DNA from: Escherichia coli
Lineage (GTDB): Bacteria > Pseudomonadota > Gammaproteobacteria > Enterobacterales > Enterobacteriaceae
Assembly (NCBI RefSeq): GCF_011045215.1
Contig: NZ_CP049201.1
DNA length: 64,000 bases
Direction: 5' to 3' (one strand)
Below are positions 11,701 through 17,700 of the stretch, one piece after another. The position numbers are program-made. The number at the start of each line of letters is the position of its first letter. The first letter of the stretch is position 1.

Positions 11701-14700
11701 TTTTTATAGGGTGTTAATCTGGTATTTAATTAAAAGACGGAGTTATTTATACTGACATATCAAATAAATAATTTTTAACGACTTTTCTATTTGGCTGATT
11801 GTTTTGCGTTCTTTTTATAAGGTGTTTTATTTTTAAAGGTTTTTTGATGAGATTACATAGTCTTAAAATAAAAGGATTTAAACGTATCCAAACTGCAAGA
11901 GATAATATTTGGTGATACCACGTTTCTCATTGGTGCTAATAATGCCGGTAAAAGTTCTGTTCTGAAGGCCGTTGAATGGCTGCTTTCAGATAAAAAGAAG
12001 ATGGATATTGACTTTTTTTATTGTGAATCTGATGAATCACGTGAAAATAAAATAGCAACTGAGTCAATTGTACTCGAGGCTGAATTCAGAAATGTACCGG
12101 AAGAGGCATTGCAATGGAGAGGTTTTAGGGGGAGGATATTTGAATATAATGCTGGAAATAGTGGGGAAACGGGAAAGTCTCTGATTTACAGGAAAACATA
12201 TGAACCGGGGAATGATGTTGTTATTGAATTGAAATCTTTTTCAAGAAAATTGAATACACGATTTGAAACCGCAGTCAGAGCATCTGACTTGGTAGAAGCT
12301 GGTGCTGATGCCGAAATCATCACTGAGTATTTTCCAGATCAAGCTAAAAGATTTAATGCAGCTGACAAAGAAAAATTAAAACTCATTGATGAATTATGGG
12401 ATATTTCTGATGATGAAGAAGTTTGGGATAAAAACCCGGGGGGAATTGCAGGTGTTGTGTTATCCCGATTACCTGCTTTTCTATTAATACCAGCAGAATC
12501 AGCTTCTCATGAAATTGACACAAAAGCGGGAGCTTTGCAGAAAACGCTGAATGAACTATTCAAAGATGTTCGTGGCAATTCAGAAAATTATAGAAAGGCC
12601 CAGGAGTCTCTGAATGCGCTTGCGAAGGAATTAGATCCTGCAGATGAAACGTCAGAATTTGGTGTGATGATGGGAGAACTTAACAGTGTATTAAGCGGAG
12701 TTTTTCCAGAGTCAAAGATATATGCTACGGCTGATTTATCTGATCCTGATAATGTTCTCCTACCTTCATTTTCGGTTGAAATGTCGAGTAACATTAAAAC
12801 ATGTGTATCGAATCAAGGAACCGGAATGATTCGAGCAGCTGTATTTGGATTGTTGAGATTTCGGCAGCAATGGCTGAGAAAAAAAGGTAAGGATGATGCT
12901 GCTACCAGAAGTCTTATTATTGGATTTGAAGAACCAGAAATTTATTTACACCCTAGTGCAGCAAACCAGATGAGAGATTTGATTTATGAATTATCAGATG
13001 GACAGTCACAAATAATAGCGACAACACATTCACCTTATTTGATTGATTTGTCGAGAAAACCCCGACAGGTACTTAACCGATTCCATTATGATAATTCACA
13101 TACGACAGTCTACCCGCTCTCAGTGACAGAGAAATTTCTGGCCTTGCAGGATAATGATAAAGATCAGATAAAAATGCTGATTAAGCTGGATGATCATGTA
13201 TCAAGGATCTTTTTTACCCGAAAAGTTGTTGTTGTCGAGGGAGATACAGAGGAAGTCATTATCAAAGAAGCTATCCGCAGAATGCCAAAAGCAATGCGAA
13301 ATAAGTTGCTTGCATCAACAGAGCTGGTTAAAGCACGTGGCAAGGCTGCGATTATCGGCCTGGTGAAGTATCTTAGCGCGCTGGATGTTGATTTTTTTGT
13401 TATCCATGATCGTGATGGCGGAACTCCCGGTGCGGAGATCTTTAATGCGCCGATTGCTGCTGCTGTTGGGGATGCCAGCAAAGTTATCATGCTGGAAGAG
13501 TGTATTGAGGATCTGCTGGGGTACCCAGCTCCAAGTGGTGAAAAACCGTTTAAGGCGTATCAGGAAGCACAGCGCTGGGGAGATAACTGGAATGACGTGC
13601 CTGAACCATTAAGGAGAATACTGACTAGAGCTTTTTCCCCATTTATCGATTTGGCTGAATGAGCAAAAGGGAAAAACTCTGATAAGTAGAGAGTTGAAGA
13701 TGAGCGCTTGGTGCATTGCCAGCACTCTTTTGATTGAAGATCTTTATTTCAGTGAAAGTGGTGCCTGGTTTGCCTTGCCTAAACGTATCATAAAGTCGGC
13801 ACACCATACCTGATGCTGCTATGCGATGTTCCTGCTGGATGTGATGTCGGAAAGAAAGGCGGAATATTACTGCAATAAGGTAGCAGTCCATATCAGACGC
13901 GGGCCTTTCATGATGAACAGGAGAATAACTTGAGTTGCCGGGAATTGCCGCGGCCATACGACATAATCGGGCCAGAGGAAAACACCAGATGGCCTCAATA
14001 TCTGACATTGTCAGAGACCTTTCGCGGCTCGGCTGGACGGATGAACGCATTGGCACTGAGCGGGGCAAGTGCTAAGGCTGAAACAGATTAGCGGGCTGAC
14101 GGGCCTGTTTCAGGAAGAGGATTTCAGCCCGGCATAGACGCTTCGCTGATACTGTTATTGTTATTTCAGTGAGTTGATGTTTTGAGCAGGAAAAAGAGTA
14201 CCCTGGAAGTTGTGGAAGACAAGGTTGCACAGAAACTGGAGGCTGCAGGTTACTGGCGCAGAGCTTCTGCCCGCTGGTTATTTGTTATGGGCAATTTTGA
14301 ATGTACAGAAGCACAAGGGGAGTGGTTGTTGTTACGCAGGAATTATTGCCTGACGCAGATATCGTCCCCGCCGCTACCTGAAAAGCTGGATATCAGCGAA
14401 GTGGTAAAAGCTGCAGATGCCACGCTGAGGCGAATGGGGATTGCCAGCCCGTCCGGAGAGGTATTCAGAAAAGGTATATTGACCTGTAGATATTCAGATA
14501 ACAGGTATTGATGATGAATAAAGGAAGTATATCAATGACATGGCAGCTTTTATGCGATGAACATGGTTTTACCCGGGAACATTACAGTGAACTGAAGAAA
14601 TTCAGTCCGGAGGTATTACATGAAATTATTGTTGAAATGGCCTGCTGCCATCCATCAACCAGTGTATTGCTCAGGAATAAGTGGCTGACACCGCCGGAGG

Positions 14701-17700
14701 ATATTCTGGGGCAGGTTACCCGTGAATACGAACGAAGAATACAGAACTGTCCATCTTTCAGGAGCGAGAAGGAGGTGGAGTCCTGGTTAAATGAACTGTT
14801 TTTTGCTGTGATTGCTCCGCTATACCGTGTTGCTCCCGGACAAACAGAACAGGCTGAATCCTTTATTCTGCAGCTTATTGCGGAGCAGGTTTGGGGACTT
14901 ATTTTAACCAATGATGGTTATTCATGGCATTGTGCCCTTTATGACATGTTATTCTGTCTTGTTTTACGAAACACGAAAGGCCAGCCTGAATATCTGAGAA
15001 AACGAATAACGGAAATAATTAATGAATCTGATATAAGACTGACTGTAGACGAAATTGAATGCCAGATTCAGTATGTTCAGGATAATGAACAAAAGGTGGT
15101 TTTACGTGAGTTGATAAATAATTTGTAATGGACGGGGCATACAATAATTCATGTAAGACCATGGAGAAATGAAAGTGAATATGTTCCTTAAGTATCATGA
15201 TGTAATGTCCACCCTGAAAGGCCGACACCAACATTTTGACAGATTATACAGTCAGTATTGTTCGCTTGAACGCCAGATAGCCAGACTTGAAACTGATTTT
15301 GGAGGAGGATATTCCATGAAAGTCGTGATACTCAAACTTGAGAGACTTGATGTGAAACGGGAGTTACAGACGCTTCTTGAAGAAGAAGCAAAACACTTAA
15401 GGCAGGGACTTAAATAACGTTTTCTTAACAGGAAAAGCGAACTGTTCTTATTGTCGGAGAATGTTATGCGTATTCCATCTTGCAAAGAACCCGGTGAAGG
15501 ACATGTAATACAGGCACTGCGTCAGGCGTATGCCGATAATCCCCGGATATTACCGGGAGACTTATGTGCAAAATTCGACGTATCTGTGTCAACAATGAAA
15601 CGCTGGCTGGCCATGCCAGAGAATGACGTTCAGGCGCTCGTTAATGAAGAAGTGCGGGATATGGCTACTGTTGATGAGGTTATTGAACATTTCTGTCCGA
15701 ACGGACGGGATATACCAGACACGCAGCGTAGATGGCGGCTGTATCAGATTATGCGTGCACTGGAGGACAAGGGCTGGAACAGGATAAAAATTGCCCGTTA
15801 TCTCGGGCTGAATCGGGGGACAGCCCGGTATTATCTTTCAATGTCCGAAGATGAAGTGCAGCGCATCCGGGATATTGCTGAAGGGCGACTGATTATCAAC
15901 GTACGGCGGACAAAAAAACCACTGAAGAAATCAGAACTTCTGGAAATTATTGATGCGCAGAACAAGCTACCAACAATAACACGACCACAGATTTGCGAAG
16001 TTACGGGCCTGAGTATGTCCCGGCTCATGCGGTATCTGGCGTTAAGTCCTGCAGACCGTGAGGCCCTGCTTACTGGTAATAAGTAGCCCACAGATGACAA
16101 CCAGTACATTTACAATGTGTGGCGTTTCCGGAGGGTAATGATAAACCGCTTAATCTCCGGAGCGAGAAAACATCACGCTGACCATCTGATATTCATGGGG
16201 TGGGGAAAATCGTGCATTTTGGTTTTGTTAATTTCCGGGAGACAGGGCATTGATTTCCGGGGGAGATTAAACAAATCTTAATCAAAGAAACAGTTGGAGA
16301 TATGTCGTGATTTTTTTCATCAAGCTTTTAGTATGTTCCTGTATTTTTTGTGTATCTGCTTATTTTCTTGTCGGTGGAATGGTGTCGTTTATCATATGCA
16401 TTACGACAGGGAATTTTTTAATTCCGGACGGGCAGGTGGTGAGAAGTATTATATGGGGGTGTATTACGGGGGCGGTAATTACATTTATTGTAATGTTTTT
16501 TAATCTGATGGACAGACTCAGTTCCCGTAAAAAAACACGGTCAGATTATGAGTGAAATTTCCGCTGGTATAACAAACAGGGTTATGGATATTCTCGTTTA
16601 TGTGGAACATTCAGTTTGTATCGGAACTGGTAAGAACCTGACAGTTACATTCCCAATGTTTTATGGGGCTTCGGGGATATATATAATAGTTTATTGATAC
16701 ATGTTCTGTAGTTATACTGCGTATTCCGCTCTATTCGATCACGGATTTGCATCGAAGTCCGATCAGCGATTCGCATACTTTCGATCAACCGGGAACTTAA
16801 CTTTTTCTACCGCTTTTTAACTCGTTTTTTCGATGCTTTCCACTACCGGGGGGTTTTTCCTCAGGGACTCTCCCTGAAGGACCAGTCTGTGTGAGTTATG
16901 TACCAGTCTGTCCAGGATGGCATCTGCTGTTGTTGGGTTCTCCATCAGACCATGCCATTTATCTACCGGGAACTGGCTTACCACTATCGTGCTGCTTTGA
17001 CCGTAACGATCTTCTATGAGCTCCAGAAGGTCATTACACTGGGCGTTACTTAACTGTTCCAGCCCCAGATCGTCCAGGATTAGAACCTGTATTTTTTGCA
17101 ACTGTTTCAGATATTTCAGCCAGCTGCCATCAACACGTCCCTGAGCCAGTTGTTCCAGTAATCGCCCGGTTCTACAGTACCGGACGCTGTGTTTCTGTCG
17201 ACATGCCTGTTCGCCCAGCGCATTGGCTATCCAGCTCTTGCCACATCCTGTCGGACCGGTTATCAGCAGGTTTTTCCTGTGGGTTATGTAGTGGCCGTTC
17301 AGCAGTTCCCTCATCTGTTCAGCCCGCAGACCTCTTGAGGCCGGATAGCGCAGCCCTTCCGGTGTTGCCTGATATTTCAGGCCGGCATTTTTTCTCAACC
17401 GTGCCACACGGCTGTTTTCCCTGCTCAGAAGCTCGTCATCAACCAGCAGCGTCAGCCTTTCCTCGAACGACAGTTCGTCGTAGGTCTGAGGCGTTTCCCG
17501 CTGCCGTATCAGGCTCCCGGCCATCGCCGGGAGTTTCAGTTGGGTCAGTTTGTTTAACAGATTATCACTCATTCGGTTGTTCCTTCTGTCAGTGGTAGTA
17601 GCCAGGACCACGCAGGTTTTCATGCTCTGAAGCATATGCCGGATGTTGTTCGCCCTGGCGGGATAACGGAAGCTCAACGTTATCCCGATGATGACGCAGC

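What the first reader, a model, noticed from the sequence alone, without database searches (positions are those of the whole stretch)
14182..16086. Four-gene AT-rich array with a PerC-like activator and an HTH protein downstream of the OLD gene
Four small co-oriented ORFs with overlapping or short spacers follow the OLD gene. The first resembles PerC/Pch-type activators that regulate virulence loci from horizontally acquired elements; the last has an HTH. The array could be a regulatory cassette acting on chromosomal or island targets.
Basis: inference. Interest (0 to 1): 0.3.

Follow-up and report, generated by a model that had tools for sequence, protein, structure and literature searches.

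The report
Mosaic gene array with PchD-type regulator
The four small genes are real, but they are a patchwork of two unrelated pairs: the already named E. coli regulator gene pchD with its usual unnamed partner, left behind after the neighbouring ibrAB genes were deleted, joined to a rare pair of unknown function. This is ordinary, already annotated genomic-island content.

Summary
Four co-oriented ORFs lie at 14182-16086. ORF1 is a strong PerC-family member and ORF4 carries helix-turn-helix motifs.

The array is a mosaic, not one cassette.
- ORF1 and ORF2 are orthologues of pchD (88% identity) and ECs_1389 (75%) of E. coli O157:H7 Sakai. They form the distal half of a mobile ibrA-ibrB-pchD-ECs1389 cassette, matched in roughly 2,000 of 5,426 complete E. 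coli genomes and also found on plasmids.
- In this window ibrAB is reduced to about 400 bp of remnants.
- Homology to that cassette stops at 15119. From there ORF3 (DUF465/YdcH-like), ORF4 (three HTH repeats, only one real protein cluster in 5.8 billion) and an 82-aa membrane ORF form a rare E. coli-only segment. Only one complete genome carries it.

PchD is the Pch group reported not to activate LEE, so a virulence-activator role is unsupported and its targets are unknown.

The locus sits in a decaying variable region beside a type VI secretion cluster, with a frameshifted OLD gene, IS21 and IS4 insertions and a split hsdR.

Two modestly new points: ORF2 relatives sit next to PerC genes in three different gene orders, and they recur near the tagA/vasL end of type VI clusters. 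Interest is low.

The parts
11847..13662 (+). OLD-family ATPase/TOPRIM nuclease gene (context). It is frameshifted in this window.
   Evidence: PADLOC Old, E 1.7e-50. Pfam AAA_15 plus OLD-like_TOPRIM. A 1-bp insertion near 11897 relative to the 604-aa gene of strain C5 puts the Walker A region out of frame. The long ORF restarts at 12001.
13735..14130 (+). Remnants of ibrA (PAPS-reductase-like) and ibrB (ParB-like) left by internal deletions.
   Evidence: RefSeq annotates both as pseudogenes in the 98.9%-identical strain C5. Window 13742-13943 aligns to the ibrA 3' part, and 13944 onward to the ibrB 3' end, of an intact cassette in L003.
14182..14511 (+). ORF1: PerC-family small regulator, orthologue of PchD (ECs_1388).
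   Evidence: PF06069, E 1.6e-32. 88% identical to Sakai PchD. 24% identical to EPEC PerC. dN/dS 0.21-0.37. It is the only PerC-like ORF in the window.
14511..15128 (+). ORF2: all-alpha partner protein, orthologue of ECs_1389. The start overlaps the ORF1 stop.
15119..15128 (.). Recombination junction. Homology to the common ibrAB-pchD-ECs1389 cassette ends here, in the last codons of ORF2.
   Evidence: Alignments to L002 and L003 stop at window 15119. L001 and L004-L011 continue to 16717.
15175..15417 (+). ORF3: DUF465/YdcH-like small helical protein.
   Evidence: Pfam DUF465, 22.2 bits (cut-off 25). NCBIfam PRK11415, 46.5 bits (cut-off 91). PDB 1zhc HP1242, E 9e-4 over the full length. RefSeq calls it 'DUF465 domain-containing' in C5. 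The start is ATG in relatives and GTG here.
15466..16086 (+). ORF4: 206-aa protein with three HTH repeats, an E. coli-only orphan.
   Evidence: HTH_23, 32.6 bits, and HTH_8, 25.8 bits. Internal repeats score z 6.2, 3.5 and 2.6. Only two clusters in 5.8 billion proteins, one of which is a frameshifted copy. Single-sequence AF2 model pLDDT 72.6. No significant PDB fold match.
16307..16555 (+). 82-aa hydrophobic ORF that travels with ORF3-ORF4.
   Evidence: It is called as a gene in related loci and is 97.6-99.6% identical across them. No family was found.
16817..20750 (-). IS21 (istB, istA) and an IS4-family transposase. They are inserted between the array and the type I restriction-modification genes.
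   Evidence: NCBIfam IS21_help_AAA 3e-76, transpos_IS21 2.2e-85, transpos_IS4_3 1.5e-103. Both are absent at this position in C5 and in L004-L011.

Best explanation
The array is a mosaic junction inside a variable, defence-gene-rich island. The island lies just past the tagA/vasL end of a type VI secretion cluster in an E. coli genome.

ORF1 and ORF2 are the pchD and ECs_1389 orthologues. They are the surviving distal half of the mobile four-gene cassette ibrA-ibrB-pchD-ECs1389, whose ibrAB half has been deleted here.

By family analogy (inferred), ORF1 is a small PerC/Pch-type modulator of transcription that acts by relieving H-NS silencing of foreign DNA. ORF2 is a translationally coupled, all-helical protein with no enzymatic signature. 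It is most likely a protein-binding partner or modulator of ORF1 (inferred from conserved adjacency only).

ORF3 (a DUF465 helical hairpin) and ORF4 (a DNA-binding protein with three HTH repeats) belong, together with the 82-aa membrane ORF, to a separate, rare, E. coli-restricted segment. Recombination fused it at about 15119, and in related strains it leads straight into a type I restriction-modification locus.

Shown: gene identities, orthology, mosaic structure, purifying selection, and expression of the orthologues in other strains. Inferred: the anti-silencing mechanism, the ORF1-ORF2 partnership, and DNA binding by ORF4. Targets are unknown.
For: Family and orthology: PerC profile match. 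88% identity to PchD and 75% to ECs_1389, with the same ibrA-ibrB-pchD-hyp gene order in Sakai SpLE1. The same cassette occurs in other chromosomes and on plasmids.

Mosaic structure: ibrAB remnants lie upstream. About 2,044 of 5,426 complete genomes match the region query, and every partial-coverage row listed covers 13742-15119. Only one genome (C5) carries 15130-16700. Homology to the common cassette breaks at 15119. A 145-bp deletion at the ORF1/ORF2 junction in L004-L011 leaves ORF3-ORF4 intact.

Selection: dN/dS is below 0.4 for ORF1 and ORF2.

ORF1-ORF2 linkage: adjacency recurs in diverged relatives with a different gene order. L014 has ORF2-like then PerC with a 4-nt overlap, at 43% and 54% identity. 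L030 has PerC-DUF6933-ORF2-like.

Expression: ibrB, perC and hyp3, with adjacent locus tags, are co-induced in STEC (PMC7649339). pchD is induced on lettuce (PMC6891304).

Mechanism: Pch relieves H-NS silencing (PMC4764244 abstract).

Island context.
Against: There are no expression data for this strain. The promoter scan finds nothing upstream of ORF1 and overall is at chance level (6 sites found against 6.4 expected).

In this window ORF1 and ORF3 start with TTG/GTG where relatives have ATG. ORF2 carries a 6-bp deletion. The surrounding island is visibly decaying. The genes may therefore be relics.

The anti-silencing mechanism was shown for PchA-C, not for PchD, and PchD had little effect in the assays reported.

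Several ORF2 relatives have no PerC neighbour: L013, L016, L018, L026, L033 and L035. The partnership is therefore not obligatory.

The ORF4 structure comes from a single sequence and found no specific match.
Confidence: 0.7

Rival explanations
1. One four-gene regulatory operon. ORF1-ORF4 would be transcribed together and act jointly on island or chromosomal targets.
For: All four genes are co-oriented, with an overlap and gaps under 50 nt, and no convincing terminator lies between them. The same four-gene order occurs in strain C5. Partly degraded, it also occurs in L004-L011. Segment 14605-16717, which includes the ORF2 3' part, travels as one block at 97-98% identity.
Against: ORF1-ORF2 occur in about 2,000 complete genomes with a different downstream gene (a 107-aa hypothetical). 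ORF3-ORF4 occur in one. ORF3-ORF4 persist intact where the ORF1/ORF2 junction is deleted. All loci with the four-gene order are nearly identical, so their co-occurrence is shared ancestry and not independent evidence.
Confidence: 0.12
2. Non-functional relics. After the ibrAB deletion the remaining genes are drifting towards loss, as the rest of this island is.
For: ibrAB is deleted. OLD is frameshifted. The nuclease and hsdR genes are split, and IS21 and IS4 are inserted. ORF1 and ORF3 have TTG/GTG starts where relatives have ATG, and ORF2 has a 6-bp deletion. Sister strains have lost the ORF1/ORF2 junction.
Against: All four reading frames are intact. dN/dS is well below 1, although that reflects long-term history rather than this lineage. 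The orthologues are transcribed and regulated in other strains.
Confidence: 0.15
3. Part of, or a regulator of, an anti-phage defence or type VI secretion function. PerC-ORF2, originally with IbrAB, would control or belong to a defence or T6SS-linked system. ORF3-ORF4 would control the downstream type I restriction-modification genes.
For: The array is flanked by OLD, a NERD-UvrD helicase, a T5orf172 nuclease and type I R-M genes. ORF2 relatives recur within about 0-5 kb of tagA/vasL in E. coli, Pantoea and other contigs. In L014 the ORF2-like/PerC pair sits beside an NA37 + RelA_SpoT pair, the gene pair described as type I PANGU. IbrA shows weak BrxP/DndC similarity. ORF3-ORF4 are followed by the same hsdRMS genes in most of the related loci.
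Against: None of the four ORFs has a meaningful PADLOC hit. ORF4's only hit is a trivial short HTH stretch, and ECs_1389 and IbrB have none. ORF1-ORF3 carry no enzymatic domain. The cassette also lies far from any T6SS, in Sakai SpLE1 and on plasmids. Co-location in variable islands is expected for any mobile cargo. Controller proteins are known for type II, not type I, R-M systems (general knowledge).
Confidence: 0.08

Closest known systems
pchD (ECs_1388) and ECs_1389 in the ibrA-ibrB-pchD-ECs1389 cassette of E. coli O157:H7 Sakai SpLE1
   Same: ORF1 is 88% identical to PchD and ORF2 is 75% identical to ECs_1389. Order and orientation are the same, and ibrB sequence lies immediately upstream.
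   Different: Here ibrA and ibrB are reduced to about 400 bp of remnants. The downstream neighbour is DUF465 plus a triple-HTH protein instead of the usual 107-aa hypothetical or IS elements. The location is next to a T6SS cluster rather than in the tellurite-resistance island.
PerC of EPEC (perABC operon, plasmid pMAR2) and PchA/B/C of EHEC, which activate LEE1/ler by relieving H-NS silencing
   Same: Same Pfam family (PF06069), similar size, and encoded on horizontally acquired DNA.
   Different: ORF1 is only 24% identical to EPEC PerC. It belongs to Pch group 2 (PchD), reported as not needed for ler/LEE expression. Its partner gene ORF2 is unrelated to perB.
PerC-family proteins of Gram-negative phage-inducible chromosomal islands, for example EcCIMP1_025
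   Same: A small PerC-family gene carried as accessory cargo of a mobile element. Its regulatory sign and targets are not predictable from the family name.
   Different: No integrase, AlpA or primase lies nearby, so this is not a PICI. No ORF2 relatives were found in viral contigs.
DUF465 proteins: E. coli YdcH (NCBIfam PRK11415) and H. pylori HP1242 (PDB 1zhc)
   Same: ORF3 aligns over its full length and is a similar size, about 75-80 aa.
   Different: Scores fall below the curated cut-offs of both Pfam and NCBIfam. The function of the family is unknown.

Membership tests
PerC family (Pfam PF06069) | Profile match above the curated gathering score over most of the model. | tested here: met
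   112 bits against a cut-off of 22.6, E 1.6e-32, model positions 2-87 of 90.
PerC family (Pfam PF06069) | Small protein of about 90-100 aa, encoded on horizontally acquired DNA. | tested here: met
   99-109 aa depending on the start codon. It lies in a variable island beside IS elements, and close homologues are on plasmids and in SpLE1.
PerC/PchABC functional class (activators of LEE1/ler) | Activates the LEE1 promoter or relieves H-NS silencing. | not testable with these tools
The 88%-identical PchD is reported to have little effect on LEE (PMC6265319 citing Iyoda & Watanabe 2004 and Porter 2005).
Pch group 2 (PchD) | Close sequence identity to ECs_1388 and synteny with ibrB upstream and ECs_1389 downstream. 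| tested here: met
   77 of 88 residues identical. An ibrB remnant lies upstream and the ECs_1389 orthologue lies downstream.
IbrAB cassette (ibrA-ibrB-pchD-ECs1389) | Intact ibrA (PAPS-reductase-like) and ibrB (ParB-like) genes. | tested here: not met
   Only fragments remain at about 13735-14130. They are annotated as frameshifted or partial pseudogenes in the near-identical C5 locus.
DUF465 (Pfam PF04325) / YdcH | Profile match above the curated cut-off. | tested here: inconclusive
   Pfam 22.2 bits against 25. NCBIfam PRK11415 46.5 bits against 91. PDB 1zhc E 9e-4 over the full length. The three weak hits agree with one another.
Helix-turn-helix DNA-binding proteins (HTH_23, HTH_8) | Profile match above the curated cut-off. 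| tested here: met
   HTH_23 32.6 bits against 24.6. HTH_8 25.8 bits against 22. Both match residues 93-129, and two further HTH-like repeats are present.
Known anti-phage defence systems (PADLOC-DB v2) | A match of any of the four ORFs to a defence-system protein model. | tested here: not met
   No hits for ORF1-ORF3. ORF4 gives only a 16-residue HTH stretch matching mad1. ECs_1389, PchD and IbrB have no hits.
OLD-family nuclease (upstream context gene) | Intact ATPase with Walker A, plus a TOPRIM domain. | tested here: not met
   The domains are present, but a 1-bp insertion near 11897 puts the Walker A segment out of frame relative to strain C5.

The most novel reading that the evidence does not exclude
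PchD-type PerC proteins and the ECs_1389/ORF2 helical protein could form a previously unrecognised two-protein regulatory module. The module keeps its adjacency through gene-order changes (PerC-ORF2, ORF2-PerC, PerC-DUF6933-ORF2). It is recurrently planted at the tagA/vasL end of type VI secretion clusters and beside defence genes in Enterobacterales. There, originally together with IbrAB, it might switch on H-NS-silenced neighbouring genes: T6SS, defence or prophage genes such as eib.
Probability: 0.1. Interest if true: 0.5.

Novelty: new member of a known kind. Interest (0 to 1): 0.15.

Why it matters
As it stands, little. The first gene is an orthologue of a named gene (pchD), and RefSeq already labels the genes as a PerC-family regulator, a hypothetical protein, a DUF465 protein and an HTH protein.

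The useful corrections are these:
- The array is a recombination mosaic left by loss of ibrAB, not a dedicated cassette.
- The PerC gene is of the PchD type, for which a virulence-activating role has been tested and not found.

Suppose the conserved PerC/ORF2 pairing and its recurrent position at type VI cluster ends turned out to be functional. That would give a handle on what the widespread but functionless-looking PchD-type regulators do. It might also bear on how IbrAB activates prophage genes.

Tried and rejected
- ORF2 against PerB of the perABC operon: no similarity.
- ORF2 profile against PDB sequences: nothing (best E 0.17).
- ORF2 relatives in viral contigs: none.
- ORF2 relatives in one genome per species (100,044 species): only three loci.
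- ORF4 against the 4xHTH 'GcrA-faint' proteins found near ORF2 relatives in L018, L026 and L030: not homologous (BLASTP E 0.41, hhalign probability 0.2). The idea of a conserved PerC + ORF2 + HTH trio was therefore dropped.
- ORF4 model against PDB: no match with E below 0.1.
- Rfam on 13000-17000: only a chance hit far below threshold.
- Promoter and terminator scan: at chance level, and uninformative about operon structure.
- Short repeats: the only suggestive one is TTrATTTCCGGGrGA x2 at 16228-16264. It was not followed up and may be chance.
- PADLOC: no defence-family membership.
- The key primary papers could not be read: Sandt 2002 on ibrAB and Porter 2005 on PerC-like proteins. Statements about them rest on citing papers or on memory.

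
Full report
**Observation**

The region 14182-16086 holds four + strand ORFs. Candidate starts were judged from ribosome-binding sites and from relatives.
- ORF1: 14182 (TTG; relatives have ATG and the same MSRKKST... N-terminus) or 14212 (GTG), to 14511.
- ORF2: 14511 (ATG sharing one base with the ORF1 stop) or 14535 (ATG behind AAGGAAG), to 15128.
- ORF3: 15175 (GTG here, ATG in relatives), to 15417.
- ORF4: 15466 (ATG behind GGAG), to 16086.

The gaps are 46 and 48 nt. GC content is 44.7% for the array, 46.3% for the window, 53.9% for the type VI genes and 40.6% for the OLD gene. 'AT-rich' therefore holds only against core E. coli DNA.

The genes are real. dN/dS is 0.21-0.37 for ORF1 and 0.25-0.33 for ORF2. 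ORF4 is intact in the nine full-length related loci compared, with more synonymous than non-synonymous changes in most comparisons.

**Family assignments**

ORF1 matches Pfam PerC at E 1.6e-32 (112 bits, cut-off 22.6). ORF4 matches HTH_23 and HTH_8 above their cut-offs. ORF3 matches DUF465 just below the cut-off. ORF2 matches nothing in Pfam, NCBIfam, PHROGs or PADLOC.

ORF3 also hits NCBIfam PRK11415 (YdcH) and the DUF465 structure 1zhc over its full length.

ORF4 contains three HTH-like repeats. It is essentially an orphan. Only two clusters exist in 5.8 billion proteins, and one of them is a frameshifted copy. A single-sequence model (pLDDT 72.6) found no specific fold match.

**What ORF1 and ORF2 are**

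The window is E. coli DNA. Strain C5 matches 11500-16600 at 98.9% identity, and RefSeq annotates the same four genes there as a PerC-family regulator, a hypothetical protein, a DUF465 protein and an HTH protein.

About 2,044 of 5,426 complete genomes hold some match to that 5.1-kb query. Every partial-coverage row listed covers 13742-15119, annotated as PAPS reductase, IbrB-like, PerC family and hypothetical.

In O157:H7 Sakai the order in SpLE1 is ibrA (ECs_1386), ybdM/ibrB (ECs_1387), pchD (ECs_1388), ECs_1389. ORF1 is 88% identical to PchD and ORF2 is 75% identical to ECs_1389. The same four-gene cassette sits on plasmids.

In the window, ibrA and ibrB are reduced to fragments at about 13735-14130.

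ORF1 is only 24% identical to EPEC PerC.

According to PMC6265319, PchD forms Pch group 2. That paper, citing Iyoda & Watanabe 2004 and Porter 2005, reports that it has little effect on LEE. A PICI PerC-family protein even represses LEE1 (PMC11773190). The only mechanism shown for the family is relief of H-NS silencing by Pch (PMC4764244).

Orthologues are expressed. ibrB, perC and the adjacent hyp3 rise together in STEC on adherence to epithelial cells (PMC7649339). pchD rises on lettuce (PMC6891304).

**Mosaic structure**

Alignments to the common cassette (L002, L003) stop at window 15119, in the last codons of ORF2. In those genomes a 107-aa hypothetical gene follows.

The segment with ORF3, ORF4 and the 82-aa ORF occurs in one complete genome, C5. 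A fragment occurs on one plasmid. It is also present in other draft E. coli assemblies.

In L004-L011 a NERD helicase replaces OLD. A 145-bp deletion (window 14460-14604) truncates ORF1 and removes the ORF2 start. ORF3, ORF4 and the type I restriction-modification genes that follow in most of them are intact.

The two pairs therefore have different distributions and fates. The four-gene order in C5 and the window reflects shared ancestry, not independent conservation.

**ORF2**

The family is tiny: 42 clusters by word-indexed search and 29 representatives in 1.84 billion proteins. It is absent from viral contigs. It was found in only three loci across one genome per species.

A model built from alignment A1 (pLDDT 82) is an 11-helix all-alpha protein. 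Structure searches return only generic helical-repeat matches.

Context of diverged relatives:
- L014/L015 have ORF2-like followed, with a 4-nt overlap, by a PerC gene that is 54% identical to ORF1.
- L030 has vasL, a 4xHTH protein, PerC (49% identical), DUF6933 and ORF2-like.
- Other relatives lack any PerC neighbour and follow DUF2913, a ClpX-type zinc-finger protein or a Crp-like gene.

Separately, ORF2 relatives lie within about 0-5 kb of a tagA/vasL gene in the window, in L035/L036, in L030, in L018/L019 and in Pantoea L026. Sakai SpLE1 retains a vasL fragment upstream of ibrAB.

This supports a loose PerC-ORF2 functional link and a recurrent position at type VI cluster ends. Common ancestry of these islands cannot be excluded.

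**Surroundings**

Upstream lie tssE, a split T5orf172 nuclease gene, a NERD-UvrD helicase, a 101-aa ORF and tagA (ImpA_N + VasL). Then comes an OLD-family gene whose Walker A segment is out of frame because of a 1-bp insertion near 11897.

Downstream lie IS21 and an IS4-family element, a split hsdR, hsdM, hsdS and a DEAD-box helicase. Further on are leoABC-island genes.

The island is variable, rich in defence genes, and visibly decaying in this strain.

**Verdict**

The best reading is a mosaic of the pchD-ECs1389 remnant of the ibrAB cassette and a rare DUF465/triple-HTH segment. ORF1 is probably an H-NS-related transcription modulator and ORF4 a DNA-binding protein, both with unknown targets.

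Nothing here is far from known kinds of genes. Interest is low. The one lead worth noting is the PerC-ORF2 pairing and its association with type VI cluster ends.

Noticed in passing
window 11847-12001: The OLD-family nuclease gene carries a 1-bp insertion (an extra A near 11897) relative to the 604-aa gene of strain C5. The Walker A motif (GANNAGKSS) is out of frame, and the long ORF only restarts at 12001. This is either a pseudogene or a sequencing error.
   Followed up: yes
window 13735-14130: Remnants of ibrA (PAPS-reductase-like) and ibrB (ParB-like) lie here. An intact ibrAB pair precedes the PerC gene in the related E. coli loci examined.
   Followed up: yes
L018/L019, L026 (Pantoea sp. 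BAV 3049), L030, L035/L036, window 10158-15128: Genes of the ORF2/ECs_1389 family recur within about 0-5 kb of the tagA/vasL gene that ends a type VI secretion cluster. The arrangements differ and often include a DUF2913 gene or a ~220-aa protein with four HTH repeats. Whether this reflects function or a shared insertion hotspot is open.
   Followed up: partly
L029 29333-29491 (E. coli O157:H7 Sakai SpLE1): A short vasL fragment (81% identical over 53 aa) lies upstream of the UvrD-like pseudogene and ibrAB-pchD in SpLE1. This suggests that the segment came from a type VI-adjacent region.
   Followed up: partly
L014 6001-10274: A diverged ORF2-like/PerC pair sits beside an NA37 (YejK-like) + RelA_SpoT gene pair, the gene pair a 2026 preprint describes as the type I PANGU anti-phage system. 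It also sits beside a DUF4011 helicase.
   Followed up: partly
window 16228-16264: Two copies of TTrATTTCCGGGrGA lie 22 bp apart, in the intergenic region between ORF4 and the 82-aa ORF. A related sequence lies inside ORF4 (15549-15561). They could be an operator or could be chance.
   Followed up: no
window 16307-16555: An 82-aa hydrophobic ORF with no family travels with ORF3-ORF4 in the related loci that extend far enough.
   Followed up: partly
window 16817-20750: IS21 (istA/istB) and an IS4-family transposase are inserted between the array and the type I restriction-modification genes. They are absent at this site in strain C5 and in L004-L011.
   Followed up: yes
window 21656-25072 and 6509-7752: The hsdR gene is split into two ORFs (21656-23617 and 23720-25072). 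The T5orf172/GIY-YIG-type nuclease gene is split as well (6509-6955 and 6895-7752). These are further signs of decay in this island.
   Followed up: partly
L001 4299-9303 (E. coli C5): Strain C5 carries two tandem copies of the 101-aa ORF plus tagA-fragment module. They flank an extra AAA-ATPase/exonuclease pair. This hints that the tagA 3' region serves as a recombination site for cassette exchange.
   Followed up: no
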